The notes under the pieces are model-generated. The model ran no database searches. It saw only the letters and a program-made list of their open reading frames with translations, and was not told the origin of the DNA. The position numbers and the translations under genes were made by a program. 64,000 nt of DNA from an uncultured Candidatus Saccharibacteria bacterium (GTDB lineage: Bacteria > Patescibacteriota > WWE3 > UBA101185 > UBA10185): positions 227,436-291,435 of the forward strand of contig CAYLVW010000001.1 in the NCBI GenBank assembly GCA_964387275.1, given 5' to 3'. This document shows, in pieces, positions 44,445-57,287 of this stretch (position 1 is its first letter; each line of letters begins with the position of its first letter).

Positions 44445-47363
44445 ATGTTTAAAGAGATAAATTCTTCCCCGAATTTTCCGGAAATGGAGAAAAAAACTAA
44501 CGATTTTTGGAACAAGCTTAAAATTGTTGAGAAAGTACGAGCTTTAAGAAATACTGACAAGGTAGGTGAGAAAGTATATTACGATGGTCCTATAACAGCA
44601 AATGGAATGCCTCACTATGGTCATGCGATTACATGGACCTTAAAAGATGTTGTGCCTAGGTATTGGAGTATGTTGGGATACCAGGTACTTAGAAATATGG
44701 GCTGGGATTGCCAGGGAATACCAGTTGAGTACGAAGTTGAGAAAGAGTTAAAGTTTGAAAAAAAGGAAGATATAGAGGCATTTGGGGTTGAAAAATTTAA
44801 CCAGCTATGCAGAGAATCTGTTTTAAAACACCAGAAAGTTATGTTTGAGTATGAAACTCGCATTGGTAGGTGGTTTGATAACAAAGAAATTTATGCAACT
44901 ATGGACCCAACTTACATAGAAAGTATTTGGTGGTCACTAAAAGAGCTTTATACAAAGGGTTTGTTATATGAGGGACATAAAGTTGTAGCTTATTCCACAA
45001 GAGCAGGTACGACCTTATCCACTCATGAAGTAAGTGAGGGTGGCTACAAGGAGATAGAGGATCCTTGGATAACAGTAAGGTTTCCATTAGTTTCTACTGA
45101 AAAATTTTCAAAATATCTTCCTAATGGTGTTGCTAAGACATTTATTTTAGCTTGGACTACTACGCCTTGGACAATACCAGGTAATCTAATGCTTGCCGTT
45201 GGAGTTTCCATACAGTATGTAATGGTTGTGTGCGAAGGCAGTGCCTATATTGTTGCCAAAGAAAGACTAGAGGCAGTTTTTGAGGGTAAAACTTATACAA
45301 CAGTAGCAGAAATCTCCTCCTCCGATTTGCTTGGGTTGGAATACTCCCAACCTTTTAAACATTATGAATCAAAAAGAAGCGAGGGATGTTTTAGAATAAT
45401 CTCAGCTTCTCACACTAATACAGAAGATGGTACTGGTATAGTTCACCTGGCCCCCTATGGTGCTGAAGACTTTGAAGTTTTTATGGAGAGGGGGATTAAG
45501 ATTTTTGATTATCTGGATGAGAGCACAAACTTTACCAAAGACATACCAGAATATTCAGGTTTGTTTTATAAACAAGCCAATAAGAAAATTATCGCTGATC
45601 TACAAAATAAAGGCTTGCTATTTTCCCATGGTACCGTAGTGCACAGGATGCCAATGTGCTGGAGAACAGGGACACCACTAATATATAAACCTGTTAAGAG
45701 CTGGTATGTGGCAGTTTCTAAACTAAAAGATAAATTGAAAGAACAAAATCAGTCACTTAACTGGTACCCAGAGCATCTAAAAAATGGTAATGCTGGTATT
45801 TGGATAAACAATGCTAGGGACTGGGCAATATCCAGATCTAGGTACTGGGGTACTCCTCTTCCGGTTTGGGTTAATGACAAGACCGGAGATATATTAGTGA
45901 TAGGTTCTTTTAAAGAGCTTCAAGATTTATCTGGTGTTTTGTTAAGTGATCCTCACAAGCCGTTTGTAGACGACATTACTTGGGAAGACAAGGCAAAAGG
46001 CGGTACTTTCAGAAGAATCAAAGATGTAATTGATGTTTGGTACGACTCAGGATCTATGCCCTTTGCTAGGTTGCACTATCCTTTTGAAAACAAAGACAAG
46101 TTTGAAGAATCATTTCCAGCTGAGTACATTGCCGAGGGCCCAGATCAAGTGAGACTATGGTTTTATGTAATGCACGTTCTTGGGGTTGCTTTATTTGATA
46201 AAGTACCATATAAAAACGTAGTTACGATAGGTACTATGCTAGATGAGCACGGGAAGAAACTATCTAAAAGTAAGAAAAATTATAAGCCAATGGATGAGGT
46301 TTTAGATGTTTATGGTGGGGATGTTTTAAGATATTTTATTCTTAACTCCTCCATAGTAAGTGGTACTGATAGTATCTTTTCTGAAAAATATCTAATTGAA
46401 GCAAGGAAAGAATTTTTCTTAATACTTTGGAACTCTCTTAAGTATTTTGTATCTTATGCTAATATTCACAATTTTGTACCCTCTAGTGACTATCCAGAAT
46501 TAAACGAGGTTAATGATTATTACTTGCTTGATAAATGGTTATTAGCTAAGTTTAAGGTTTTGCAGTCAGAAGTACTTAGCAGTATGAGTAGATATGATAT
46601 TTTAAATGCAGCAAGACAGTTTGGTCCATTTATAACAGACTTATCCACCTGGTATATTAGACGTTCTAGGGATAGGATAAAAGAAGGGGACCTAGACTCC
46701 CTTAAATCACTGTACTTTGTATTTTCAGAGCTATCAAAGCTCTTGTCCCCATTTCTACCTTTCCTTAGCGAAGAAATATATCAAACCCTAAATCTACCTA
46801 AAACAACCGGAAAAGACTCAGTACACCTAGACAAGTTTGGATCAATACCAGATCTTACCAATGAAGATCAACAACTACTCCTACAAATGGAAACAACCAG
46901 AAAAATCGTGTCTCTAGCACTTTCCATAAGAGTAACCGAAGGGGTAAAAATACGACAACCCTTAAGTGACCTTGTTGTAGTATTCAAAAACAAAGACTTA
47001 GCAGAAAACTTTATTTCTAGACTCATAAATGATGAAGTCAATATCAAAACAATAGGTACAGTTTTACCATCTGACCTCTCTTCTTACAAAATGGCAGAAG
47101 ATACAGACTTTGTATTATATCTAAATACAGATATAACCGACGAGCTAAAACTTGAAGGAGACGCAAGAGATTTAGTTAGAAAGGTACAGGAAATGCGTAA
47201 GGAAAGTAATTTAGCTGTTGAAACCAAAATAGATTTAGTTCTTCCACAATCTCCAAAAAACAAACTTTTAATTGAGAATTTTAGAGATTATCTACTTGCC
47301 AAAACACAGGCTAAAACATTAGATATTTCTGATGAAGTTAATGATATAGTTATTAAATGCTAG
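44445..47363 (+). CDS. ileS: Isoleucine--tRNA ligase
   Basis: Class I HIGH (PHYGHA) and KMSKS (KLSKSKKN) motifs, with the IleRS-type GWDCQGIPVE segment. 972 aa, with no C-terminal zinc finger (type 2-like). Confidence 0.7.
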   Translation: MFKEINSSPNFPEMEKKTNDFWNKLKIVEKVRALRNTDKVGEKVYYDGPITANGMPHYGHAITWTLKDVVPRYWSMLGYQVLRNMGWDCQGIPVEYEVEKELKFEKKEDIEAFGVEKFNQLCRESVLKHQKVMFEYETRIGRWFDNKEIYATMDPTYIESIWWSLKELYTKGLLYEGHKVVAYSTRAGTTLSTHEVSEGGYKEIEDPWITVRFPLVSTEKFSKYLPNGVAKTFILAWTTTPWTIPGNLMLAVGVSIQYVMVVCEGSAYIVAKERLEAVFEGKTYTTVAEISSSDLLGLEYSQPFKHYESKRSEGCFRIISASHTNTEDGTGIVHLAPYGAEDFEVFMERGIKIFDYLDESTNFTKDIPEYSGLFYKQANKKIIADLQNKGLLFSHGTVVHRMPMCWRTGTPLIYKPVKSWYVAVSKLKDKLKEQNQSLNWYPEHLKNGNAGIWINNARDWAISRSRYWGTPLPVWVNDKTGDILVIGSFKELQDLSGVLLSDPHKPFVDDITWEDKAKGGTFRRIKDVIDVWYDSGSMPFARLHYPFENKDKFEESFPAEYIAEGPDQVRLWFYVMHVLGVALFDKVPYKNVVTIGTMLDEHGKKLSKSKKNYKPMDEVLDVYGGDVLRYFILNSSIVSGTDSIFSEKYLIEARKEFFLILWNSLKYFVSYANIHNFVPSSDYPELNEVNDYYLLDKWLLAKFKVLQSEVLSSMSRYDILNAARQFGPFITDLSTWYIRRSRDRIKEGDLDSLKSLYFVFSELSKLLSPFLPFLSEEIYQTLNLPKTTGKDSVHLDKFGSIPDLTNEDQQLLLQMETTRKIVSLALSIRVTEGVKIRQPLSDLVVVFKNKDLAENFISRLINDEVNIKTIGTVLPSDLSSYKMAEDTDFVLYLNTDITDELKLEGDARDLVRKVQEMRKESNLAVETKIDLVLPQSPKNKLLIENFRDYLLAKTQAKTLDISDEVNDIVIKC

Positions 47364-47980
47364 AACAACACACTTATTCTGGATATAGACCTGACGAGCC
47401 TGCAGATTTTAAGCGTTCTGAGGTAATATCTCCTGCTGTTTCTGATTACTGTGATTGGTTATTGCAAGAAATATCAGATACAGCGTCACCAGAGCGTAAT
47501 TTTGTAGCAATGGGTAAAGTTCTTGATACCATAAGGTTTTCAGAAGAGACCCCTCCGTCTCTAGAAGGAGGTTCTGAGGTAGAGCGTGAAGAGGCCAGGA
47601 TGAGGATAAATACTATAAACGCTTTAGAAAAAGTAGTAACTAATCACGCTTCTAGTCTCACTCTTGCCGAAATTCAAGATACTACTTTTGCATTAGATTC
47701 ACTAACTCAGCTTCACAGAGATTTTCTACTTAGAATTCTTCAAAACGCAGCTGACGATAATCCAAAAGCATTAGAGTTTTTCCACTTACATCCAGGAGAT
47801 GGGGAAAAAGTTAACGTTTTGGAGGAAATTACAAAAATATCTGAGCTTTTAGAATATCCCGGTACAGGTTATGTAAAACCTAGAGATCTTGAAGCTTTAT
47901 TGTTCGACTACAAGGACATAACATCTGCCCGTAACGGTTTTTTGTTGATTTCTAGATCACACAAAGCCTTTACTAATTAA
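47357..47980 (+). CDS. Hypothetical protein (207 aa)
   Basis: ORF overlapping the ileS stop by 7 nt. No recognisable domain, and its GC content is slightly above the local average. Confidence 0.45.
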   Translation: MLEQHTYSGYRPDEPADFKRSEVISPAVSDYCDWLLQEISDTASPERNFVAMGKVLDTIRFSEETPPSLEGGSEVEREEARMRINTINALEKVVTNHASSLTLAEIQDTTFALDSLTQLHRDFLLRILQNAADDNPKALEFFHLHPGDGEKVNVLEEITKISELLEYPGTGYVKPRDLEALLFDYKDITSARNGFLLISRSHKAFTN

Positions 47981-48039
47981 GTTTTTTGAAAACCCCGCAC
48001 TGCTCCTGCTTAGTTTTTTTTGTGTCTAAAGATTTAATG

Positions 48040-49083
48040 TTAATTACTAAATGTAGGAAGTATCATAAGCATTCTATTTTCCAATTTTGATCTTAAAGAC
48101 GCCACCTGCTGATTTCTTAAAAGTGCCGTTGATTGTAATAATTCCTCAAGGAAAGTAAGCTTTTTTGTTTGTGTTACAACTTGGTAGTCATCAAGACTTA
48201 GGTTACTCAGAGTTGCAACCTCACTTACAAAGTCGTCATATGATTTTATATCATCTATTAACCCAAGTTTATTGGCTTGAGTATTTTCATAAATTAATGC
48301 ACCCACCTCTTCCTTAATTGTTGTTGGATTTAGCTCTCTATTTGTGGCCACATGGTTTACAAAATTTTCGTATTCATTATTAATTCCTTCTTGTAGTGTT
48401 TGTTTTGTTTTATCAGACATCTTTTTATAAGGATTATCAAAATCTTTATCAAAACCTGCTGTAATATAGTATCTGTTTATACCAAACTCCGTAGACACAG
48501 CATCTCCAAACTGTGAAGATTCCGAGAGCACATTGTTATACTCTTTAAACGGCCCAAGTATTACTCCAATGCTTCCAGTAAGGCTTCCATAGTCTGCTGT
48601 AACTTTATCTCCAGAGGCTGCCACCCAGTAAGCACCACTGGCTGCCAGACCTGATATATGAGAATAAACTTTTCTGCTGCTTAAAGTGTTGTATTGAGCA
48701 ATACCGTCGGAAATTGCTTTAGCTCCTGTAATTGTGCCTCCGGGAGAGTTTATAGATAAAATCACAGCTTTTATGTCGCCATTTTCACTAGCAGTTAGTA
48801 ATTGTTTTTTTATATCGTACCCGTAAGTTACGTTGTAAGCTGTTAGAAGGTCAAGTATTGGTGATCCTGACGTATTAGAATCTAGGATTATTCCACTAAT
48901 ATCTATTTGAAGAATTTTGTTTGAAGATTTCTTATTACCATAGACGTAGGTATAGCTTTTATCTTGATCTTTGTCACCTTTATCTTCTGAAAATAGAGTG
49001 CTAAAGCCCAATAACAATGCATTGTAACCAAGAATAATAATTAATGCACCAATAACAAAGCTAAATAAACAGGATTTCTTTGA
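48040..49083 (-). CDS. sppA: Signal peptide peptidase SppA (S49 family, 36K type)
   Basis: KAVILSINSPGGTITGAKAISDGI (ClpP/crotonase-fold S49 motif). The start is placed at the internal MSKKSCLFSFVIGALIIILG TM segment; the ORF track extends to 49263. Confidence 0.75.
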   Translation of the reverse strand, partial: SKKSCLFSFVIGALIIILGYNALLLGFSTLFSEDKGDKDQDKSYTYVYGNKKSSNKILQIDISGIILDSNTSGSPILDLLTAYNVTYGYDIKKQLLTASENGDIKAVILSINSPGGTITGAKAISDGIAQYNTLSSRKVYSHISGLAASGAYWVAASGDKVTADYGSLTGSIGVILGPFKEYNNVLSESSQFGDAVSTEFGINRYYITAGFDKDFDNPYKKMSDKTKQTLQEGINNEYENFVNHVATNRELNPTTIKEEVGALIYENTQANKLGLIDDIKSYDDFVSEVATLSNLSLDDYQVVTQTKKLTFLEELLQSTALLRNQQVASLRSKLENRMLMILPTFSN

Positions 49084-49108
49084 CATTAAATTATGATAGC
49101 ATACTAAT

Positions 49109-49969
49109 ATGTTAGCAAATCCAGAGATTGTATTAAAAACAGATAGTGAAACTCCGGAGCCTGCACTTACTAAAGCTTCTGAGTTACTAGGTTTAGAAGG
49201 TGCTGAGAAAGAATTTTTGGAATTAGTGAGAGAAGCTGAAGAAAGATATTTAAGAGACAACACTTTTATAAAGCCTTCTGTTTATGGTTATGCTGTCGGT
49301 GCCTTATATAATACTGCACTGGATCGTGCAGAAGCCTCGGCTCATAACAGGGAAGAGTTAGCTGCTAATCTTAGATACGTTAATGGAATGTTTAGGCCGT
49401 TATTCGAATATCAACCTCGAGATCAATCCCGTAGTTCTGAGATGGCTAGGACTGTACGCTCGGGGCTAATAGTAGAACGTGCTGTTAGAAAAGTATTAGA
49501 AGGAGCAGGATACAGCACCAGAGCCCCTACATTAAAAATGGAGGCTAATGGTGTTGATTTAGTAATTCCTGTAGATGTTGATGGCGATACTCAGTACGGA
49601 TTGGCACAGATTAAGTCGGTTTATCTACCTAATGAGCTTAGTGACATGGGCATACGTGTTTTCGAAACCCCAACTGAAATAACCCAACTCGCAGATACGC
49701 ACTTTTTAGATGAATCTTACAATAGGTATGATAATACAACTACACCACATGGTCGGGTAATCAACTCGTGCCAAAAACTACTAAGATATAGTACGGAGTT
49801 TGAAAATGCTACACCAATGCTTATAATAGTTCCTTCTCCAGATAGCCCTCATTCGTGGATAAACATGGAATTAGGTACTGTTGTTGGTGATCCTAAAGAT
49901 CTAAGAAAAAGACATGAAGCTGTAGACTCTGTACTTTATAAAATATTTTTTGAAAGAGGCAAGAAATGA
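49109..49969 (+). CDS. Hypothetical protein (286 aa)
   Basis: No confident domain; a weak PD-(D/E)xK-like pattern (GVDLVIPVDVDGD...AQIKS). Its stop overlaps the next small ORF (ATGA). Confidence 0.45.
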   Translation: MLANPEIVLKTDSETPEPALTKASELLGLEGAEKEFLELVREAEERYLRDNTFIKPSVYGYAVGALYNTALDRAEASAHNREELAANLRYVNGMFRPLFEYQPRDQSRSSEMARTVRSGLIVERAVRKVLEGAGYSTRAPTLKMEANGVDLVIPVDVDGDTQYGLAQIKSVYLPNELSDMGIRVFETPTEITQLADTHFLDESYNRYDNTTTPHGRVINSCQKLLRYSTEFENATPMLIIVPSPDSPHSWINMELGTVVGDPKDLRKRHEAVDSVLYKIFFERGKK

Positions 49970-50151
49970 CTAGATTCCAGCTACCTGACTACGAAGAAAA
50001 AACTAAAGAAATTACTTGTAAAAAGGCCAAAGAGATATTTGAGTTGGTAATATCTAACCCGAAGAACGTTCCGTTTGATATCTTTTTAGAATCTCATCTT
50101 CATTTTTCCACTTGCCAAAAATGTCGAGCAACACTTAAGAAACAAAAATGA
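49966..50151 (+). CDS. Hypothetical small protein (61 aa) with a C-terminal CxxC pair
   Basis: Translationally coupled to the upstream ORF (ATGA overlap), with ...ITCKK...STCQKCRATLKKQK. Confidence 0.3.
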   Translation: MTRFQLPDYEEKTKEITCKKAKEIFELVISNPKNVPFDIFLESHLHFSTCQKCRATLKKQK

Positions 50152-50224
50152 AACAGAGTTTTTCACGTCAGCTCAACCTGTTCACCTCATCTGCCAACAA
50201 ACGTTGGTAATATTAAAGTGAGTT

Positions 50225-50875
50225 TTAATTTAGTTCCAACAGATTACTAAATACCTCAGGAGTTAAAGCGTCACCATCTGTCATTTTCCGCCAATTTAAG
50301 ATATGTTTTCTTAGTTTTTCATTTAGTTTGGCCATTGCATCATCTTTATTTATTTGTAATTGTCTTGAGATTGTTGATTCTGCTGAAATACCTGTTACCA
50401 AATGTTTATAGAAAGCAGTTACTGCAAGTTTATTTACATTCTGACCACCGGGTCCCGAAGATTTACTTCTAACATCTAAACTTATGTTACCAAGTCCTAA
50501 TTCGTTGTAAGCAAGCCCCGATAGATCTTCCTCGTGTATATAGCTATTTATCCAAGAAACATATCTACCTATTCGTTTTTGATTTTCTATATGATTTTCT
50601 GTAACCGGAAATCTTGCTAAATCAGCAACAAGAGCTTTTTTAGTATCTGCCATTTGTTTTTCTTTGCTGTTTCTAAGCTGACTATCTTCTATAGCCTTTG
50701 TTGTTTTTGCTCCATGCTTTTTTGTTTTGCCGCCTCCCCCACCCCGCTTTTTTTCTAAACCTTCTTCGTAGTCTTCCCAAATATCATATATCTCTTCAAT
50801 TTCTTCTGGGCTTATTTTTGATGTATCCTCCTGATCTGGTTTTTCAGGATTTTGAGGTGTTGTAAATGTGGGCAT
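50225..50875 (-). CDS. RF-1 domain (GGQ) peptidyl-tRNA hydrolase-like protein with an N-terminal acidic and Gly/Lys-rich extension (ArfB/ICT1-like catalytic domain)
   Basis: ...SLDVRSKSSGPGGQNVNKLAVTAFYKHL... is a GGQ-motif RF-1 domain (PF00472) occupying the C-terminal ~115 aa. The N-terminal ~100 aa is EEIEEIYDIWEDYEEGLEKKRGGGGGKTKKHGAKTTK. Confidence 0.55.
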   Translation of the reverse strand: MPTFTTPQNPEKPDQEDTSKISPEEIEEIYDIWEDYEEGLEKKRGGGGGKTKKHGAKTTKAIEDSQLRNSKEKQMADTKKALVADLARFPVTENHIENQKRIGRYVSWINSYIHEEDLSGLAYNELGLGNISLDVRSKSSGPGGQNVNKLAVTAFYKHLVTGISAESTISRQLQINKDDAMAKLNEKLRKHILNWRKMTDGDALTPEVFSNLLELN

Positions 50876-50957
50876 GTTTTGATTTTAGCAGGTTACTCAT
50901 GGTAGTAAAACAATAGTGTTCATAGATGGTTTTGGATTTATGAGAAGGTAAAAAAAT

Positions 50958-51014
50958 CCGGACCACCACATTGAGTAAAACTACACTTTCGTGTGTCTCA
51001 ATGTGATGATCCGG
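50958..51014. repeat. Imperfect 18-bp inverted repeat (CCGGACCACCACATTGAG / CTCAATGTGATGATCCGG) with a 21-nt spacer at the 3' boundary of the GC-rich gene
   Basis: Read directly from the sequence: 16 of 18 positions are complementary. It may be a terminator or an island boundary. Confidence 0.4.
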
Positions 51015-51026
51015 TCTAGGTGTCAG

Positions 51027-51686
51027 TTAGTCGTTGCCGTATTCCTCCTGGAACTGCTTGGTTTGGGCAGCGCGGCGTCGGATTTCGTTCTGCTCTTGGC
51101 CGCTAAGCCGGTTCCATTTCCTTTCAGCACGTTCAGCCGAGCGACCGATTTTTCCGCCGAGCACCAATTTTGGTGCCGGAAGGTTCAAGGCGGATTCCAG
51201 ATCGGTCTTGGCCTGTTCGTGTCGTCGCTCTGCCTCCATGCGACTTTCGTGCATCTTGCCCTCGACCAGCCCGTAGATGATGCCGTGCATCGACTTGTTC
51301 ACCAGGTCTGGGGAGTCGGACGAGTTGTCGACGATCAGTTTTCTCGACGGCTCCGTAGACCATTTATACCCCTTGGTTTTCACGTCGGCGTCGACCCAGT
51401 CGCAGGTTGCTACCGCTAGGCGGATCATGTACGGCTTCAGCCGCCCGTTGAGGTTGCTGAGAGACTCACGGATCTTCTTGACCGTGACGCTGCTGAGGAT
51501 GCCGTTGTCCGTGGTCTTGAGGATCAGATCGAGCTCCCCCATGTCGAGGTTCGCCATCTCGGCAACCTTTTCAATGACTGCATTGCCTTCCTCGCCCCAA
51601 TCGGCGGCGAGAAGCATGCTAGCCGTGTCGATCACGGCCTGGAAGGCACCGATGAAACCGTTTGGCTTGCCATTCGTGTCCGTCAT
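51027..51686 (-). CDS. Hypothetical protein (219 aa) encoded by compositionally foreign DNA (about 57% GC, against about 36% for the flanks); probable horizontal acquisition
   Basis: Abrupt GC shift confined to about 50.99-51.72 kb. It contains one long ORF with a sensible composition (MTDTNGKPNGFIGAFQAVIDTASMLLAADWGEEGNAVIEKV...) and several GC-induced shadow ORFs on other frames. I do not recognise the product. Confidence 0.55.
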   Translation of the reverse strand: MTDTNGKPNGFIGAFQAVIDTASMLLAADWGEEGNAVIEKVAEMANLDMGELDLILKTTDNGILSSVTVKKIRESLSNLNGRLKPYMIRLAVATCDWVDADVKTKGYKWSTEPSRKLIVDNSSDSPDLVNKSMHGIIYGLVEGKMHESRMEAERRHEQAKTDLESALNLPAPKLVLGGKIGRSAERAERKWNRLSGQEQNEIRRRAAQTKQFQEEYGND

Positions 51687-52218
51687 GGTGTTAATCTCCT
51701 GTAACAGGTGTACCCCCTAGAAAAGGGATACGAAAAGAAAGGTTCCAATAAGACTTTTTAAACTGACTTATTTAGTTTTCAAATTTTGATAGCGCTTCTC
51801 CTTATACTGAATAAATGCCCAAATAAGAATACCAGAGACCTGGTTTGATGTTTTTAGTTGATATAACGGGAAAACAATCCTTATTTAGACATTTATCCTT
51901 GGTATTTCGCTGTAGCTAAGTAATTTGAGCTAAGCTAAAAGGAGGCTGTACTAATTGATACAAATACACTATAACACTATAGGTTCAAATCTGTCAAGTC
52001 TTTAGAAGCATTATTTATACTAGTGCAAAGTTAATGTTACTAGCTTATACACACATTAGGTGGGAAGAGGGCAGTGATATTAAGAGAAAGTACAAGTTAC
52101 TCATTGCAAGGAATTTGATAAGCTGACGCTTTGGTATAGTGATACTTATATAAATTTTTGATGTTAAAGTTTAATTATTTATCAGAAATTTTTTTGTGAA
52201 ATGTGATAAGATAATTTT

Positions 52219-53610
52219 ATGCCCAATGTTGTAATTTCATTAAGCAAAAATAAATTGAAAGCAAGTGTAATTCTTACAAAGAGTATTGGTAAGAGTTTTT
52301 CCAGAGATGTGTTTACACAGGTTTTTGAATTGCCCGATACAGTTGTTAACGATACGATTATTTTAGACGCTGCACAGTTTGCTTCTGCTGTTAGCGATGT
52401 TGTATTACAACTTGTAGAAAAAAGCGGTAAAAGATTTAGTCCTAAAAAAGTTTCCCTCACATTTTTAACAGAACCTCAGAATGAAGTTTTAAAGTTTGTT
52501 ACAGTAAATAAACAGAGTGGCGACACAGAAGCACAAGTAATAGCAGAGGTAACATCCAAATTAAACCAAATAAAAATTGAGGATTTATATTTTACTTATT
52601 CTAAGGTTGCACCTTTTGTATATCAATTCGTAGGAGTAGAGAAGTCTATTTTAGATAAATATCTGGAAGTTTCAAATTTGCTACAAGTTGAGTTAAAAGG
52701 GGTTTTTCCTTGGGTTATGTTTTTACCAAAGTTTACAGGTGGTGTGGATCCTGCTATTTACGTATCCAATTCAGATGGTAGACAGGTAGTTGCTCTGTCT
52801 GAGCTTGGGGGTATCTATTATTCTTCTACATTCAGCGATGAGAGATCCACAGCAGAGCTTGAAAAGATGGTACACGAGCTTTCTATTTACAAGAGATCAA
52901 CGCCTATTAATAAGATTTTTTCACTAGATGAGTTTGAATTTAGTTTGGACCCTACATACGAGCTTGCCAAGATAAATTTAGGTGATATGTCTGAAAATCC
53001 AGAAGTTAGAGGTTTTGAGCATCACTTGGTAGCTGATTCTATTGTTGAATCAGATCCTCTTATATATACAGGAGTTGAAAATCTTCTGAATTTGTTACCA
53101 CTTCCAGTAGTTGAGCGTAAGAATTCTAAATCATTAGTATATGTAGGCGGTGGTGTGGCCTTATTCTTACTAATGGGAGGAATTTTTGGAGGCTTTTATC
53201 TATTCGGAGGGAAAATTGGTTCAAATAACTCAGCAAATGTGCTTAGTAATAGTGATTCAAAGCTTGAAGTTCCTACACCAACCCCAACCTTAGAAACTAC
53301 ACCTACACCTGTTCCAACCCCCGTTCTTGTTAAATCTGATTTTAAGATACGTGTGGAGAACGGATCGGGAATCCCCGGAGCAGCAGGAAAGGCTCAAGGA
53401 GTGCTTCAAGGGCTTGGCTACACCGTACCTGATATCGGCAATGCAGATGAGTCAGATAGATCTACCACATTAATTAAAATTAAGACATCAAAGTTGTCTT
53501 ATAAAGATCTTCTAATTACTGATCTAAAGTCTTCTTATGAACTTGTTGTAGAAGACGGACTTAATGAAACCACCGAATATGACGCTTTGATGGTTGTGGG
53601 TCAGAAGTAG
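52219..53610 (+). CDS. Bitopic membrane protein with a C-terminal LytR_C (LytR/CpsA/Psr C-terminal) domain
   Basis: About 300 aa cytoplasmic region, one TM helix (LVYVGGGVALFLLMGGIFGGFYLF), a Pro/Thr-rich linker (PTPTPTLETTPTPVPTPV), then KIRVENGSGIPGAAGKAQGVLQGLGYTV...GNAD...TTLIKIK, typical of LytR_C (PF13399). Confidence 0.6.
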   Translation: MPNVVISLSKNKLKASVILTKSIGKSFSRDVFTQVFELPDTVVNDTIILDAAQFASAVSDVVLQLVEKSGKRFSPKKVSLTFLTEPQNEVLKFVTVNKQSGDTEAQVIAEVTSKLNQIKIEDLYFTYSKVAPFVYQFVGVEKSILDKYLEVSNLLQVELKGVFPWVMFLPKFTGGVDPAIYVSNSDGRQVVALSELGGIYYSSTFSDERSTAELEKMVHELSIYKRSTPINKIFSLDEFEFSLDPTYELAKINLGDMSENPEVRGFEHHLVADSIVESDPLIYTGVENLLNLLPLPVVERKNSKSLVYVGGGVALFLLMGGIFGGFYLFGGKIGSNNSANVLSNSDSKLEVPTPTPTLETTPTPVPTPVLVKSDFKIRVENGSGIPGAAGKAQGVLQGLGYTVPDIGNADESDRSTTLIKIKTSKLSYKDLLITDLKSSYELVVEDGLNETTEYDALMVVGQK

Positions 53611-53775
53611 CTTCTATTTCGCAAATTTTATTTTGTAGATTTTAATTTATTTAGTAGCGAAAAGGTCATTTGGTTCAATTACTACGCTTTTTATTAAAGA
53701 AATTCCTATTCTTTTAGTGTGTATATTGTTTTTCAGGCTTTAATTGATACAATATCCTAAGTTTAAGGAGAACAC

Positions 53776-54090
53776 ATGAAAACGAATGTGCCTCAGTGTA
53801 GCCTTGCCCAGTTTTTGGGAGCTATTTTTGGCATGATCGTATATTTCTATATTTTCTATCTTTTGTTGGGGTTGGCTGGAACTAATTATTTTGTTGTGGG
53901 AATCCTGTCACTTATTAGTGTGTTTGTGCTTTTAGGACAGGTGATTATAGGTATAGGGACAGTCTATGACGCAGGATCTACAGCAAGTACAAGCTTTGAG
54001 AGGTTTATGTGGGGAGTCACGGTGTTTAGTTTTAGTGCCTTTGTGTTTGTGGTTAAGGTAGTGTTTTTTGATTTTAACCCTAAGATATAA
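53776..54090 (+). CDS. Hypothetical small membrane protein (104 aa, 3 TM)
   Basis: Hydrophobic ORF preceded by an AAGGAGAA RBS and followed by an intrinsic terminator. Confidence 0.5.
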   Translation: MKTNVPQCSLAQFLGAIFGMIVYFYIFYLLLGLAGTNYFVVGILSLISVFVLLGQVIIGIGTVYDAGSTASTSFERFMWGVTVFSFSAFVFVVKVVFFDFNPKI

Positions 54091-54107
54091 TCTTAGAGTA
54101 AGTTATC

Positions 54108-54147
54108 GCCCTGAACTGTGCTTTTGGCCAGTATCAGGGCTTTTGTT
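54108..54147 (+). terminator. Rho-independent terminator (GCCCTGAACTG...CAGTATCAGGGC followed by TTTTGTT)
   Basis: GC-rich stem plus U-tract, 18 nt after the stop of the 53776..54090 ORF. Confidence 0.6.
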
Positions 54148-54267
54148 ATATACTTTAAATGAAGATTTCGTAGATTAATATCTTTACTAAATCTTTTTTA
54201 TTTCAGAAGAGTACTTAAAGCTTTTAGTTACAAGTTAGAATCAGATTCTTCTGCTGCATAAATATTT

Positions 54268-54600
54268 ATGAAAGAAGTTAAATTTTTAAATAAAGATGGT
54301 TTTACTTGTATAAATTGTGGGAAACATGTTTTGTATGAATCATTTGGTACGAAAAACAGAAATCATTGTCCCTATTGTCTTTGTTCTAAGCATGTTGATA
54401 TAACTATCGGAGACCGGAGTAATAAATGTGGTGGAGTTATGAGGTGTATTGGTAAACTATATAAGCCTGATGGAGAAGAGGTTCTTGTTCACAAATGTGA
54501 TAAGTGTGATTCTGTTCGTAAGAATAGAGTTGCTGGTGACGATGATTGGGATTTAGTTGGTTTGCTACCCGTGCTTGAGGCTGATGCTTTGATGTTTTAG
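54268..54600 (+). CDS. RNHCP-domain protein (Cys-rich zinc-ribbon-like, function unknown)
   Basis: Contains the eponymous ...TKNRNHCPYCLCSKH... motif plus additional CxxC pairs (CINCGKH, CDKCDS). Confidence 0.65.
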   Translation: MKEVKFLNKDGFTCINCGKHVLYESFGTKNRNHCPYCLCSKHVDITIGDRSNKCGGVMRCIGKLYKPDGEEVLVHKCDKCDSVRKNRVAGDDDWDLVGLLPVLEADALMF

Positions 54601-54673
54601 CATAGGCATTTGAAAATATTCATTTTTCAGAATTTTCTATCCTGTAGTATAATGTTGTCCGGAGGATGAGGAC

Positions 54674-55129
54674 ATGGAAGATTTTACCCGAGGGCTGTTC
54701 CTTTTTGTGGGCATTGTGTCTATTGTTGGTGTTATTGCTAATCTGTTCGATCTTACGAAACCAGTCAATAAAGGATCTTTTGGTATATTTAGTCTATTTA
54801 TTGTTACTATTGCCCAGGGTATAGAGTTTATTTGCAATACTATTGGGGTTTGGATTCTCACTGCAAGTGGGCTTTTTCCTTGGTGGGTTGGGGTTTTGTC
54901 TATCGCAGTTATTGTCACAATTATCGTATTTTTCCTAAGACCTTCTAACATCAAGAAGCTTAGTGAAATTGCTAAGGAAAGCGCTCAACATGCAAATGAG
55001 ATTCTTTCACAAGGATCTGCCAGTTACGATACAGGTAAAAAGACTTTTCATGAGATTTTGCTTAGTGTTATGGTTATCGTTTTGGAAGCGTCTATGGCTC
55101 TTATTGTTATGGGTATTATTAAGGTTTAG
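54674..55129 (+). CDS. Hypothetical membrane protein (151 aa, 4 TM)
   Basis: Hydrophobic ORF; unassigned. Confidence 0.45.
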   Translation: MEDFTRGLFLFVGIVSIVGVIANLFDLTKPVNKGSFGIFSLFIVTIAQGIEFICNTIGVWILTASGLFPWWVGVLSIAVIVTIIVFFLRPSNIKKLSEIAKESAQHANEILSQGSASYDTGKKTFHEILLSVMVIVLEASMALIVMGIIKV

Positions 55130-55157
55130 TCGTTTGAGGTTTGGTCTGGTTTGACTA

Positions 55158-55206
55158 GGGGCGGCCGGAAAAGCGCAACTTTGTTGCTGATTTTCCGCGC
55201 CGCCCC
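55158..55206. repeat. 49-nt GC-rich palindromic element, copy A (GGGGCGGCCGGAAAAGCGCAACTTTGTTGCTGATTTTCCGCGCCGCCCC), between convergent genes
   Basis: 47 of 49 positions are identical to copy B at 56704-56752. It can fold as a nested hairpin (GGGGCGGC/GCCGCCCC, CGGAAAA/TTTTCCG, GCAAC/GTTGC). Confidence 0.7.
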
Positions 55207-55211
55207 ATTAC

Positions 55212-55694
55212 TTATCTATTACCAAAAGTTGTAACAAAAAATGACATAAAATATCCCGTCAATATTGCGAGCTCTGTCCAAACAAACCTCTCTTCATCCC
55301 AAGCGTCCATATTACAGTATTCTTCCAGTGAGACTGATTTACCATTGCCTATATCTATATTATTAATATTAAGTGCTGTGTAGTAGTTTCTTTCTTGTAT
55401 TTTTGCAACACCAACATTGTATCTTTTTAGTCCGTAGTAAAGACCCAGTACTATATACACGATAAAAGCCCAAGCTACCCAGGTTTGTAAACTTCCAAGT
55501 AGAACACTAGCAATTATGCACGCACTAGACGCTATTATAAGTAGCGTGATCCAAAAAGATAGAGTAAAAAGTGCTCTTCTATTAAGATGCTTTATCTTCG
55601 GTATGTACATACAAAGCCCTAGATAAATTATAAGTGCTGCGCCGATCACTCCATTTAGAAGTGTGATTGCTCCAATGAGCATCTGTGTAGTCAT
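55212..55694 (-). CDS. Hypothetical membrane protein (160 aa, 4 TM)
   Basis: Hydrophobic ORF; unassigned. Confidence 0.45.
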   Translation of the reverse strand: MTTQMLIGAITLLNGVIGAALIIYLGLCMYIPKIKHLNRRALFTLSFWITLLIIASSACIIASVLLGSLQTWVAWAFIVYIVLGLYYGLKRYNVGVAKIQERNYYTALNINNIDIGNGKSVSLEEYCNMDAWDEERFVWTELAILTGYFMSFFVTTFGNR

Positions 55695-56110
55695 TAGTTA
55701 AGCATCAAGGTAAGAACAATCAACGGTATAGATATAAACACACCCAAATAATCTCTAGTCTCACTATTTTGAGTAGTATCATTCCAATTTACATCTTGCT
55801 CTGATTTAAGCGCCTGGTGTATTTTTCTTCCTACTATATTTTCCACCATAAATGCCAGATCATATACTATAAAGTAACTGTAAATCAAAATATAAGGTAT
55901 ACCTATAATTGCATGTACCTTACTTTGAATAAACCACATATTGTAGGCAATTATTATTACCCCAAGCGATCTAAGTAGTCTTACAAAGAAGGCGATACTT
56001 AAATCTCGTACTTTGAGTATTGCGTAGGGCTTAGTTGAATCGAAAGTGCCTGTCATTATGGAACTAAGGCATAGTACTAGCAATCCTACCGTAAGAACTG
56101 AGATCTCCAT
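55694..56110 (-). CDS. Hypothetical membrane protein (about 138 aa)
   Basis: Hydrophobic ORF. The start is placed at the internal MEISVLTVGLLVL; the ORF track extends to 56155. Confidence 0.4.
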   Translation of the reverse strand: MEISVLTVGLLVLCLSSIMTGTFDSTKPYAILKVRDLSIAFFVRLLRSLGVIIIAYNMWFIQSKVHAIIGIPYILIYSYFIVYDLAFMVENIVGRKIHQALKSEQDVNWNDTTQNSETRDYLGVFISIPLIVLTLMLN

Positions 56111-56215
56111 TTTCTTCCCCTTTACTAGGGGGATTGTACAACAGTTTATACCCAATAACCATAGAATTTGCAGTATCCTGCTTGGTGTTGTAAGATCTTC
56201 CAGAAAGGAAGGAAA

Positions 56216-56668
56216 ATGGACCCTAAGTGGCTCGTTTTGACTTATTTTGTTACTTTCTCATTTTTTGCGCTTAATATGGTTTTTAATCTAACAGAGCGTG
56301 TGGTGCGAGGAAGGGGTAGGTTTACTTATGTTTTGGGATCTATCGCCCTGGCGATAATGGCTAGTGCCTCTTTTTTTATTTTCACATCAAACGTGGAAAG
56401 TGCCTATACAGGTGGTATTTTGTACCCTAATGCTATTGTAGTTCTTTTGTCGGCTTACTTGCTCATTTATTCAGGTGTACATTTGTTGGCTAGTTTTCTC
56501 GATAGAGCCATTAAGGTTTACTATGCTTTTTCCTATAGTAGGGTCCCTTCGGAAACTAATAAATTGACTGCTACACAAGAGTTTTTGCCTTTTTGGCCTA
56601 TTACTGGGATTCCTGATATGGTTATGATTTTATGTTTTATTTTTATGCTTGTTATTTACTGGGTTTAA
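56216..56668 (+). CDS. Hypothetical membrane protein (about 150 aa, 4 TM)
   Basis: Hydrophobic ORF. The start is placed at MDPKWLVLTYF; the ORF track starts at 56168. Confidence 0.4.
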   Translation: MDPKWLVLTYFVTFSFFALNMVFNLTERVVRGRGRFTYVLGSIALAIMASASFFIFTSNVESAYTGGILYPNAIVVLLSAYLLIYSGVHLLASFLDRAIKVYYAFSYSRVPSETNKLTATQEFLPFWPITGIPDMVMILCFIFMLVIYWV

Positions 56669-56703
56669 TTATTAGTTAGTTGTTTAGGATTTAGATATGT
56701 TAC

Positions 56704-56752
56704 GGGGCGGCCGGAAAAGCGCAACTTCGTTGCTGATTTTCCGAGCCGCCCC
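56704..56752. repeat. 49-nt GC-rich palindromic element, copy B (GGGGCGGCCGGAAAAGCGCAACTTCGTTGCTGATTTTCCGAGCCGCCCC)
   Basis: Near-identical to copy A; again between convergent membrane-protein genes. Confidence 0.7.
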
Positions 56753-56786
56753 TAATTTCTTATACAGATAAAACCCTAAATAGTAT

Positions 56787-57287
56787 TTAAACTAATCTTG
56801 ATATAACCAGAGCATAAATATAAAAACCAGCTACATAGAATAAAACAAGGAAACTAACCCCAGTCACAATAACTTTATTAGTTAATATACTCTTATCACC
56901 AAGTTCTTGGATTTTCACCAAGATTTCTTGATTACCTGTATCACTTACAAAACTTTCTAGTAGTTTATGGCGTTCTTGTAAATAATTAAGCCCGTCACTT
57001 ATGTTATAGATATAAATACTAATAAACAGAAGCAACGGTAGAAGCGCCCAGAAAACTGACAGTTTTGAAAGACCTGCCCCATACCTCATAACTATAAACA
57101 TAAATAATAGGCTTAAAGATGCATTTATAGGTATTTGAAGAAGATCCATTGCATTAACATCTTTAATTTTCTTTTTAGTGCAATAGTTCCAGACAAAGTC
57201 TACATTTATGATGGAAGCGTAGAGACATAAAGCCATGCCAACCAAGATAATTACTAGTGACATCGGATTTTCTATATATACTGTCAT
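56787..57287 (-). CDS. Hypothetical membrane protein (166 aa, 4-5 TM)
   Basis: Hydrophobic ORF; unassigned. Confidence 0.45.
   Translation of the reverse strand: MTVYIENPMSLVIILVGMALCLYASIINVDFVWNYCTKKKIKDVNAMDLLQIPINASLSLLFMFIVMRYGAGLSKLSVFWALLPLLLFISIYIYNISDGLNYLQERHKLLESFVSDTGNQEILVKIQELGDKSILTNKVIVTGVSFLVLFYVAGFYIYALVISRLV

What the first reader, a model, noticed from the sequence alone, without database searches (positions are those of the whole stretch)
50958..52218. Single-gene GC-rich island (about 57% GC in a 36% GC genome), probable horizontal acquisition, flanked by an inverted repeat and a 532-bp non-coding tract
Between about 50.99 and 51.72 kb the composition jumps by about 20% GC, generating shadow ORFs on four frames. 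The only plausible gene (51027-51686, minus) encodes a 219-aa protein I cannot assign. It is followed on one side by an imperfect 18-bp inverted repeat (50958-51014) and on the other by 532 bp of AT-rich DNA with no ORF (51687-52218), the largest non-coding stretch in the window. The sharp boundaries argue for recent acquisition from a high-GC donor. If this is an episymbiotic CPR bacterium living on high-GC Actinobacteria (speculative), the host or its phages would be obvious donors. The product could be a host-interaction, immunity or toxin-type factor.
Basis: partly seen in the sequence, partly recalled or inferred. Interest (0 to 1): 0.65.

Follow-up and report, generated by a model that had tools for sequence, protein, structure and literature searches.

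The report
Hypervariable GC-rich orphan gene cassette
One foreign-looking gene (57% GC in a 36% GC genome of an ultra-small Patescibacteria/CPR bacterium) forms its own promoter-to-terminator unit, and an almost identical strain carries a version only 35% identical in the same slot, so it looks like a swappable fast-diverging gene of unknown function, not a simple one-off acquisition.

Summary
ORF 51027-51686 (-) is 57.4% GC with GC3 0.75. The 53 other ORFs have GC3 0.285 +/- 0.038, and the island is 8.4 SD above 660-bp windows elsewhere. The inverted repeat is the gene's own intrinsic terminator (minus strand, U7 tail). The 532-bp tract holds a near-consensus minus-strand promoter and a ~275-nt structured leader. 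The 219-aa product is soluble and all-alpha, with no match in any family, structure, phage or plasmid library. In 1.8 billion representative proteins it has one homologue (35% identity, also 219 aa, GC3 0.83). That homologue sits in the same slot in another sample's strain, which is 99.6-99.9% identical 1-3 kb away. Divergence decays outward from the ORF (saturated, then 37%, 2%, 0.4%, 0.06%). A 5' stem-loop and the terminator stay invariant. More distant relatives lack the whole 4.9-kb block between ileS and the LytR_C gene. Best reading: a moron-like accessory gene with hyperdivergent alleles exchanged by homologous recombination, probably under diversifying selection. No donor was found. 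The "recent transfer from Actinobacteria" idea is unsupported. Why both alleles stay GC-rich is unexplained.

The parts
51968..51997 (-). Predicted sigma-70-type promoter: TTGACA, 18 nt, TG-n-TATAGT (extended -10). The implied transcription start is near 51960.
   Evidence: It matches 11 of 12 consensus positions. It is one of two 11/12 sites in 44-60 kb, and the only one with a TG extension and an intergenic position. The -10 part is conserved in L001. This is a prediction only; promoter-like sites are not enriched over shuffles.
51687..51962 (-). About 275-nt 5' leader of the 219-aa gene. It contains a long imperfect hairpin (arms 51811-51830 and 51877-51896) with a nested 5-bp hairpin (51831-51844).
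   Evidence: RNA fold -67.3 kcal/mol, z = -3.54, and 0 of 200 shuffles fold as well. Inverted repeat I1. No Rfam family. No ORF of 25 aa or more on this strand. The distal part 51755-51986 differs from L001 at only 4 of 232 positions.
51701..51731 (-). Invariant 5' element next to the ribosome-binding site: stem-loop GUAyCCC-UUUUCUA-GGGGGUAC followed by ACCUGUUAC.
   Evidence: 27 of 27 positions (51701-51727) are identical between the alleles, while the next 27 nt (51728-51754) differ at 10 positions. The one change inside the stem (51728) converts U-G to C-G. The element is unique in the window.
51696..51699 (-). Shine-Dalgarno GGAG, 9 nt before the ATG (10 nt in L001).
   Evidence: Read directly from the sequence. 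It is present in both alleles although the surrounding bases differ.
51027..51686 (-). 219-codon GC-rich ORF (P0001), encoding an orphan, soluble, all-alpha protein. This is the hyperdivergent core of the locus.
   Evidence: GC3 is 0.75 against 0.285 in the genome background. The homologue P0002 has the same length: BLASTP E = 3e-36, 35-36% identity. There are no family, structure, phage or plasmid hits. AF2 predicts seven helices. No transmembrane segment; pI about 6.
50950..51014 (-). Intrinsic terminator of the 219-aa gene: an 18-bp stem (extended by inner pairs) at 50958-51014, then A plus U7 (50950-50956).
   Evidence: Minus-strand RNA fold -35.0 kcal/mol, z = -6.0. The two arm mismatches are C-A on the plus strand but G-U on the minus strand. 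The T-run is read from the sequence. 57 of 57 positions are identical in L001 although the flanking intergenic DNA differs at 7%.
50225..50875 (-). Downstream neighbour: a 216-aa RF-1/GGQ-domain protein (ArfB-like domain with a lineage-specific N-terminal half). It is part of the recombined tract.
   Evidence: Pfam RF-1, E = 6e-11. L001 has 13 substitutions between 50381 and 50785 (2.2%), against 0.4% further out. The gene's own promoter-like site is at 50909-50882.
47357..52218 (.). Lineage-specific 4.9-kb block between ileS and the LytR_C gene: p207, an S49/ClpP-type peptidase, p286, p61, the RF-1-domain protein, the GC-rich gene and its leader.
   Evidence: None of these six proteins has a homologue in 20 JGI metagenome loci or in L019. 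There ileS and the LytR_C gene are adjacent or 1-3 kb apart, with a rodA/ftsW-like gene in L019.

Best explanation
Shown:
- The island is a complete single-gene transcription unit on the minus strand. In order it has a near-consensus promoter, a ~275-nt structured leader, an invariant stem-loop plus GGAG, a 219-codon ORF, and a strong hairpin-U7 terminator.
- The ORF is a real coding sequence with foreign codon usage. It encodes a soluble helical protein from a family with only two known members.
- It lies at the edge of a block that more distant relatives lack.
- In the natural population of this Patescibacteria lineage the slot carries at least two alleles. They are about 35% identical in protein, nearly saturated at synonymous sites, and both GC-rich.
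- The rest of the genome is 99.6-99.9% identical between the strains. Divergence falls off steeply with distance from the ORF.

Inferred:
- The alleles are exchanged between relatives by homologous recombination through the flanks. The import tract in L001 is at least 1.6 kb and about 2% diverged. Natural transformation is a plausible route in this phylum.
- The alleles are kept diverse by diversifying or balancing selection.
- The product is therefore a conflict-type factor (host interaction, phage defence or counter-defence, or immunity). Shared, conserved signals control its expression.
- The ultimate origin was a gene pool of about 60% GC that has not been sampled.
For: - Composition and coding frame.
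- Only this frame is open in both alleles, and BLASTP gives E = 3e-36.
- Promoter, leader and terminator.
- The family has two members in 1.84e9 representative and 5.8e9 clustered proteins.
- Allele in the same slot with conserved flanks.
- Nucleotide identity by codon position is 51/55/40%, against 29/27/34% expected by chance.
- Divergence gradient: 0.06% at 53.4-55.1 kb, 0.4% at 49.1-50.3 kb, 2.2% in the RF-1 gene, 7% in the proximal intergenic DNA, 37% at 51728-51754. The hairpin is identical at 57/57 positions and the 5' element at 27/27.
- Logan contigs break at about 50314 and 50870, as expected if variants coexist in the samples.
- Absence of the block in relatives.
- Natural competence has been shown for Saccharibacteria (PMC10187176 and PMC10633639, abstracts seen).
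Against: - Only two alleles and one 1.7-kb contig of the second strain are available. Selection cannot be tested because dS is saturated.
- The function is purely inferred. There is no domain, no informative fold match and no secretion signal.
- The promoter and transcription start are predictions.
- If the alleles had diverged inside a genome with GC3 of 0.29, they should have lost their GC richness. Keeping GC3 at 0.75-0.83 needs either repeated input from an unseen GC-rich pool or nucleotide-level selection, and neither was demonstrated.
- The ORF is more diverged than the adjacent non-coding DNA, which simple import of one old segment does not fully explain.
- It is not proven that L001 and the 99.9%-identical contigs of the same run come from one strain.
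Confidence: 0.6

Rival explanations
1. Simple recent horizontal acquisition. A single passenger gene was transferred recently from a high-GC host (for example Actinobacteria) or its phage, has not yet ameliorated, and has no special population dynamics.
For: GC3 is 0.75 against 0.285 in the background, with sharp boundaries. The gene is absent from more distant relatives. Codon usage fits a donor of about 60% GC. HGT into Patescibacteria is documented (PMC12455944).
Against: There is no homologue in any Actinobacterium, phage, plasmid or virus collection. A second allele, diverged to near-saturation, occupies the same slot in a near-identical strain. The gene is framed by AT-rich expression signals shared by both alleles. 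No integrase, tRNA or direct repeats lie at the borders.
Confidence: 0.2
2. Moron-type or defence-island cargo of a decayed mobile element. The 47.4-52.2 kb block would be the remnant of a prophage or island, and the GC-rich gene its independently transcribed 'extra' gene, swapped together with the element.
For: The unit has its own promoter and terminator and a composition unlike its neighbours. The block is absent in relatives. The neighbouring S49 peptidase matches PHROG 53, head maturation protease, at 6e-38.
Against: S49/SppA peptidases are also ordinary cellular genes. No other phage, integrase or defence family was found (PADLOC 0 hits, PHROGs otherwise empty). The other genes of the block have native composition, GC3 0.21-0.25. 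The strains are 99.6% identical across the rest of the block, so only the cassette is swapped.
Confidence: 0.1
3. ORF-restricted accelerated evolution. A locus-specific, GC-biased mutagenic or conversion process, or silent donor copies elsewhere in the genome, diversifies just this ORF between fixed expression signals.
For: Hyperdivergence is confined to the stretch from the ribosome-binding site to the stop codon, and exceeds that of the adjacent non-coding DNA. Both alleles are GC-rich and exactly 219 codons long. The boundary elements are invariant.
Against: No reverse transcriptase, template repeat or recombinase is in the 64-kb window. No second copy is in the window. The differences include every substitution type and indels, unlike DGR adenine mutagenesis. 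The exhaustive search found no second family member attributed to NCBI, the source of the window genome's proteins. Only two alleles are known.
Confidence: 0.07
4. Artefact or non-coding feature: an assembly chimera with a contaminant, or a GC-rich structured RNA with an accidental ORF.
For: Sharp composition breaks are typical of chimeras. GC-rich DNA produces long accidental ORFs.
Against: An independent assembly encodes identical proteins across the locus. The same junctions occur in a different run with a different allele. The two alleles align as proteins at E = 3e-36 while the DNA is only about 50% identical, and no other frame is conserved. No Rfam hit. The mRNA folds are only modestly below those of shuffled sequences, z = -1.7 and -2.5.
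Confidence: 0.01

Closest known systems
Phage 'morons': autonomous extra genes with their own promoter and terminator and atypical composition (concept of Hendrix and colleagues; from my own knowledge, not tested against a database)
   Same: It is a single gene with a sigma-70-type promoter upstream and a factor-independent terminator downstream. Its nucleotide composition is sharply different from its neighbours. It lies in a block between genes that are adjacent in relatives.
   Different: It sits in a core chromosomal region (next to dcw, uvr and ileS), not in a recognisable prophage. It has a long structured leader. It exists as hyperdivergent alleles framed by invariant signals.
Hypervariable loci of recombining or naturally transformable bacteria, where very old alleles are swapped through conserved flanks (for example surface-antigen or immunity loci of Streptococcus, Neisseria and Helicobacter; from my own knowledge)
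   Same: The genomes are near-identical but one gene is extremely diverged. Divergence decays with distance from it. The import tract is kilobase-sized with moderately diverged flanks.
   Different: The product has no signal peptide, repeats or known antigen or immunity domain. The alleles have a base composition foreign to the genome, which is not a feature of those loci.
Compositional genomic islands and ORFan genes
   Same: Atypical GC and codon usage, patchy distribution, and no assignable function.
   Different: It is only 0.8 kb and one gene. There is no integrase, tRNA or direct repeat. ORFans are usually AT-rich, whereas this one is about 20 percentage points GC-richer than its genome and the family is polymorphic within the lineage.
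Integron gene cassettes
   Same: A short single-ORF unit followed by an imperfect inverted repeat, with interchangeable content at a fixed place.
   Different: The hairpin is identical for both alleles and is followed by a U-tract, so it is a terminator and not a cassette-specific attC. The unit has its own promoter. No intI was found in the window.
Diversity-generating retroelement variable regions
   Same: Localised hypervariability in a protein-coding gene with conserved surroundings.
   Different: The whole ORF varies, not a ~100-bp variable region. All substitution types and indels occur. No template repeat or reverse transcriptase is in the window.

Membership tests
Rho-independent (intrinsic) terminator | A stable G+C-containing hairpin on the transcribed strand, followed immediately by a U-tract, located just after a stop codon | tested here: met
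   There is an 18-bp stem plus inner pairs, -35 kcal/mol, z = -6.0 on the minus-strand RNA. A plus U7 follows directly. The hairpin starts 12 nt after the TAA. Function in vivo was not tested.
Horizontally acquired genomic island | Composition or codon usage deviating from the genome | tested here: met
   GC 57% against 36%, and GC3 0.75 against 0.285 +/- 0.038.
Horizontally acquired genomic island | Absent from related genomes at the syntenic site | tested here: met
   21 related loci have ileS and the LytR_C gene without the block. The one close strain has the slot filled by another allele.
Horizontally acquired genomic island | Mobility hallmarks: integrase or transposase, tRNA target, flanking direct repeats | tested here: not met
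   No such Pfam families were found in the window ORFs scanned or in the genes precomputed for the downstream part of the window. The only tRNA is 7 kb away. There are no convincing flanking direct repeats; D3 is 71% over 24 nt and is not conserved in L001.
Horizontally acquired genomic island | An identifiable donor lineage | tested here: not met
   No homologue exists outside this lineage.
Phage moron | Own promoter and own terminator flanking a single gene of deviant composition | tested here: inconclusive
   The terminator and the composition criteria are met. The promoter is only a consensus match, 11/12 with a TG extension.
Phage moron | Located inside a phage or prophage genome | tested here: not met
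   No prophage genes surround it apart from an S49 peptidase that also matches cellular SppA/ClpP. Flank 20/22-mer patterns, a degenerate motif of the cassette protein, and protein queries with the cassette alignment (A3) and the adjacent RF-1-domain protein all find nothing in IMG/VR.
Integron gene cassette | A cassette-specific attC recombination site and an adjacent intI integrase, in a promoterless cassette | tested here: not met
   The hairpin is identical for two different cassettes and carries a U-tract. No integrase is in the window. The unit has its own promoter-like site.
Diversity-generating retroelement target | A template repeat near a reverse transcriptase, with variable-region differences confined to adenine positions | tested here: not met
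   No long direct repeat of the ORF exists in the window. No RT domain was found in the scanned ORFs. Differences occur at all bases, with indels.
Influenza haemagglutinin HA2 / class I fusion protein | Significant sequence or fold match to the fusion peptide and coiled-coil core across subtypes | tested here: not met
Any curated protein family (Pfam, NCBIfam, PHROGs, PADLOC) | A score above the family threshold | tested here: not met
   Zero families for both alleles at E up to 10 in Pfam. P0001 also has zero NCBIfam and PADLOC hits, and its best PHROG is at E = 0.26.

The most novel reading that the evidence does not exclude
The locus may be a dedicated 'expression slot'. In this reading an invariant promoter, leader and stem-loop together with an invariant terminator frame an ORF that is diversified or exchanged as a unit. 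The ORF is actively kept GC-rich (GC3 0.75-0.83) inside an AT-rich genome (GC3 0.29). The cause would be either an ORF-restricted GC-biased mutagenic or conversion process, or strong nucleotide-level selection, for example a message that must survive an AU-directed nuclease. That would be a new kind of diversity-generating arrangement in ultra-small episymbiotic bacteria. A still more remote reading is that the protein's HA2-like glycine-rich segment plus long helices reflects a membrane-active, fusion-type function.
Probability: 0.08. Interest if true: 0.85.

Novelty: new variant of a known kind. Interest (0 to 1): 0.5.

Why it matters
Almost nothing is known about the genes that ultra-small Patescibacteria use in their conflicts with hosts and phages.

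- **A candidate conflict gene.** One orphan gene is the single hyperdivergent spot between otherwise near-identical genomes. It has its own strong expression signals. That makes it a concrete, testable candidate for such a conflict factor.
- **Evidence of recombination.** The locus gives direct sequence evidence for kilobase-scale homologous recombination between strains of an uncultivated CPR lineage.
- **A compositional puzzle.** Both alleles keep GC3 near 0.8 in a genome with GC3 near 0.3, despite near-saturated divergence. This is not explained by ordinary acquisition followed by amelioration. It points either to an unsampled ~60% GC gene pool, possibly the host or its viruses, or to an unusual constraint on this message.

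Tried and rejected
**Structured RNA instead of a gene.** Rfam at gathering threshold over the window and in E-value mode over 50.8-52.3 kb gave only noise. The ORF mRNA folds are only z = -1.7 and -2.5 against shuffles.

**Homology.** Pfam, NCBIfam, PHROGs, PADLOC and PDB sequence searches gave nothing. An exhaustive HMMER search and two word-indexed searches, one of them with a two-sequence profile, found only the two alleles. tblastn against 50,697 phage and 72,556 plasmid records gave no match at E <= 1.

**Viral and metagenome scans.** IMG/VR was scanned with flank patterns, the protein alignment, the neighbouring protein and a degenerate C-terminal motif, all with no result. A scan of JGI metagenomes with the 5' element found nothing.

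**Closer relatives.** GTDB representatives hold no close relative. The RF-1 query found none, and the best IleRS match was 49% identical. The RF-1 protein has only homologues of 34% identity or less, in unrelated contexts.

**Other ideas tested.**
- Restriction-site or GATC anomaly in the alleles: none.
- Second copy or silent cassette in the window: none.
- Repeat of the boundary elements elsewhere in the window: none.
- Direct repeats as insertion scars: only weak matches that are not conserved.
- Sample identity from the literature: the SRR accession was not found.
- Public accession or organism name for the genome: none is recorded in the protein collection.
Full report
**1.

The window is 35.9% GC, and no 1-kb bin reaches 41% except 51-52 kb. 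ORF 51027-51686 on the minus strand is 57.4% GC. That is 8.4 SD above 660-bp windows elsewhere, whose maximum is 42.7%. The rise and fall of GC coincide with the stop and start codons.

Codon-position GC is 0.58/0.40/0.75, the signature of a real high-GC coding frame. The 53 other ORFs of the window have GC3 = 0.285 +/- 0.038, with a maximum of 0.40.

The inverted repeat is as described: arms 50958-50975 and 50997-51014, 16 of 18 complementary. The 532-bp gap 51687-52218 is the largest gene-free stretch; the next is 381 bp.

The island is not a chimera. A Logan assembly of run SRR12762304 encodes identical proteins across the locus, apart from one residue at an alternative start codon. A contig from a different run has the same junction architecture.

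**2. Anatomy of the unit**

All parts lie on the minus strand.

- **Promoter.** 51997-51968 reads TTGACA, 18 nt, TG-n-TATAGT. It matches 11 of 12 positions and is the best intergenic promoter-like site in 16 kb. This is a consensus match only.
- **Leader.** The promoter implies a leader of about 275 nt. It folds better than all 200 shuffles (z = -3.5) around a long imperfect hairpin. It matches no Rfam family and has no ORF of 25 aa or more on the coding strand.
- **5' element and ribosome-binding site.** Directly before the ORF lie a stem-loop (GUAyCCC / GGGGGUAC), the sequence ACCUGUUAC, and a GGAG 9 nt from the ATG.
- **Terminator.** Its two mismatches are C-A on the plus strand but G-U on the minus-strand RNA, and it is followed by A plus U7. 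The fold is -35 kcal/mol with z = -6.0. It is therefore the gene's intrinsic terminator, not an insertion scar.
- **Next gene.** The downstream RF-1-domain gene has its own promoter-like site at 50909-50882.

**3. The product is an orphan**

P0001 is 219 aa, has a pI of about 6, is hydrophilic, and has no transmembrane segment or evident signal peptide.

- Pfam, NCBIfam, PHROGs, PADLOC and PDB sequence searches give nothing.
- tblastn against phage and plasmid records gives nothing at E <= 1.
- An exhaustive HMMER scan of 1.84 billion representative proteins finds exactly one other protein, P0002: 219 aa, E = 5e-27.
- A two-sequence profile search of 5.8 billion clusters adds none.
- AF2 predicts seven helices at the same positions for both proteins, with pLDDT 69.5 and 49.3, so the tertiary fold is uncertain.

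The C-terminal third is the most conserved part, at 50-65% identity, with the motif LGGK-G...RAE..NRL.G.EQNE.RRRA. The N-terminal half is only 15-30% identical.

**4. The key finding: a hyperdivergent allele in the same slot**

P0002 is encoded on a 1,705-bp Logan contig (L001, run SRR31850040). Its flanks are those of the window: the leader, the 5' stem-loop, the terminator and the RF-1-domain gene.

The ORF between them is also GC-rich (61% GC, GC3 0.83) and also 219 codons long. It is only 35% identical in protein. Nucleotide identity by codon position is 51/55/40%, against 29/27/34% expected by chance, so synonymous sites are close to saturation. Only the 219-codon frame is open in both loci, so the other ORFs in the island are shadows.

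Contigs of the same lineage from four further runs are 99.6-100% identical to the window at 49.1-50.9 and 52.8-55.2 kb.

Divergence between L001 and the window falls off with distance from the ORF:

| Region | Differences |
|---|---|
| ORF 51027-51686 | near saturation |
| 51728-51754 | 10 of 27 (37%) |
| 50876-50957 | 6 of 82 (7%) |
| RF-1 gene, 50287-50875 | 13 of 589 (2.2%) |
| Distal leader, 51755-51986 | 4 of 232 (1.7%) |
| 49149-50314 (L097, same run) | 0.4% |
| 53364-55066 (L093, same run) | 0.06% |

Inside the diverged core, the terminator hairpin (57/57) and the 5' element (27/27) are perfectly conserved. The one change in the 5' stem preserves pairing. Logan contigs from the other runs end at about 50314 and 50870. 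That is what a de Bruijn assembler does where variants coexist.

**5. Wider context**

The window is core chromosome. It carries the dcw cluster from mraZ to ftsZ, uvrABC, lexA, recO, eno, ppdK, nrd and ileS. No integrase, transposase or reverse transcriptase was found.

The lineage is barely sampled. The best IleRS match among GTDB species representatives is 49% identical, in a Saccharibacteria MAG. The RF-1-domain neighbour has no relative above 34% identity.

In 20 JGI metagenome loci and one Patescibacteria MAG (L019), the order ileS, LytR_C gene, RNHCP, L21, L27 is conserved. ileS and the LytR_C gene are adjacent or separated by 1-3 kb, with a rodA/ftsW-like gene in L019. None of the window's six genes between ileS and the LytR_C gene has a homologue there, and none of those loci has a GC island. 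The GC-rich unit therefore sits at the edge of a 4.9-kb lineage-specific block whose other genes have native composition.

**6. Interpretation**

*Shown.* The island is a real, autonomous single-gene unit with foreign codon usage. Its product belongs to a two-member orphan family. The slot is polymorphic for hyperdivergent alleles in an otherwise near-clonal population. The expression signals are conserved. More distant relatives lack it.

*Inferred.* The alleles are moved between related strains by homologous recombination. The tract in L001 is at least 1.6 kb, with flanks about 2% diverged, so the immediate donor was a relative and not a high-GC organism. Natural competence has been demonstrated in Saccharibacteria (PMC10187176, PMC10633639), which makes transformation a plausible route. 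The extreme, localised divergence is the pattern expected for a gene under diversifying or balancing selection. I therefore read the product as a conflict-type factor acting in host interaction, phage defence or counter-defence, or immunity. I cannot say which.

The architecture works like a phage 'moron': own promoter, own terminator, deviant composition, inserted between genes that are adjacent in relatives. No prophage is present, so it is not a member of that class in the strict sense.

**7. What remains unexplained**

Two alleles that have diverged to near-saturation should not both retain GC3 of 0.75-0.83 if that divergence happened in a genome whose synonymous sites sit at 0.29. There are two possibilities.

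- The alleles were drawn repeatedly from a ~60% GC gene pool that is absent from about 15 billion public proteins.
- The GC content of this message is actively maintained.

The ORF is also more diverged than the immediately adjacent non-coding DNA. I found no mechanism for ORF-restricted mutagenesis: no RT, no template repeat and no second copy in the window. The differences are of all types, with indels. I give that reading a low probability but cannot exclude it.

**8. Verdict**

The locus is a new variant of known kinds (a moron-like accessory unit and a hypervariable recombining locus) that encodes a new protein family. Interest is moderate (0.5). It would be higher if population data showed many alleles or an ORF-restricted process.

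Noticed in passing
window 51027-51400 (P0001 residues ~123-219); P0002 residues 126-215: A profile of the two alleles gives sub-threshold, colinear hits (E 0.04-0.3) only to H3-type influenza haemagglutinins. The region hit covers the HA1/HA2 cleavage site, the fusion peptide and helix A: P0002 'PHKATKSMFGFIAGLSDGG' against HA 'PEKQTRGIFGAIAGFIENG'. The real HA fragment scores 18.2 bits, against a maximum of 6.6 in 2000 shuffles. However, other HA subtypes and Pfam are silent, and P0001 alone does not hit. It is probably chance.
   Followed up: partly
window 47357-52218 and 54674-57287: Two lineage-specific insertions interrupt an otherwise conserved gene order, ileS - LytR_C gene - RNHCP - L21 - L27, seen in 21 related loci. 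The second block holds five small ORFs (151-166 aa), all without significant Pfam or PHROG matches.
   Followed up: partly
window 50225-50875 (-): The neighbouring 216-aa protein carries an RF-1/GGQ peptidyl-tRNA-hydrolase domain in its C-terminal half, behind a charged, lineage-specific N-terminal half that includes a GGGGG run. No relative above 34% identity exists in 5.8 billion clusters. It may be functionally linked to the GC-rich gene, because it lies within the recombined tract.
   Followed up: partly
L084-L090 (loci of distant RF-1-domain homologues P0005 and P0006): In all seven marine or saline metagenome contigs, the RF-1-domain gene lies next to a convergent bAvd / 23S-rRNA-IVP gene, the accessory-protein family of diversity-generating retroelements. 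The meaning is unknown and the organisms are unrelated to the window.
   Followed up: no
window 50312-50318 (L096, run SRR31843399): Three clustered substitutions within 7 nt near the 3' end of the RF-1-domain gene are not shared with L001. This suggests a third haplotype at the edge of the recombining segment.
   Followed up: no
window 49109-49969 (+): The 286-aa protein p286 has no family and shows a local GC bump (43%) with native GC3 (0.25). In the SRR31850040 strain a 1-nt indel at 49214 splits or shortens the gene, which is called as 247 aa.
   Followed up: no
window 51831-51844 (both strands): A small 5-bp hairpin followed by a U-rich run lies inside the leader and is nested in the long leader hairpin. 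It could be an attenuator or the 3' end of a short RNA of about 130 nt. The single leader difference at 51837 falls in its loop.
   Followed up: no
window 5602-40669: The window is core chromosome of a Patescibacteria-type genome. It has a dcw cluster (mraZ, rsmH, PBP, mraY, ftsW, murG, ftsA, ftsZ) interleaved with a histidine kinase, PGM, ppdK, eno, lexA, uvrB, uvrA, uvrC and a transglutaminase-like protein. The best IleRS match among GTDB species representatives is only 49% identical.
   Followed up: partly
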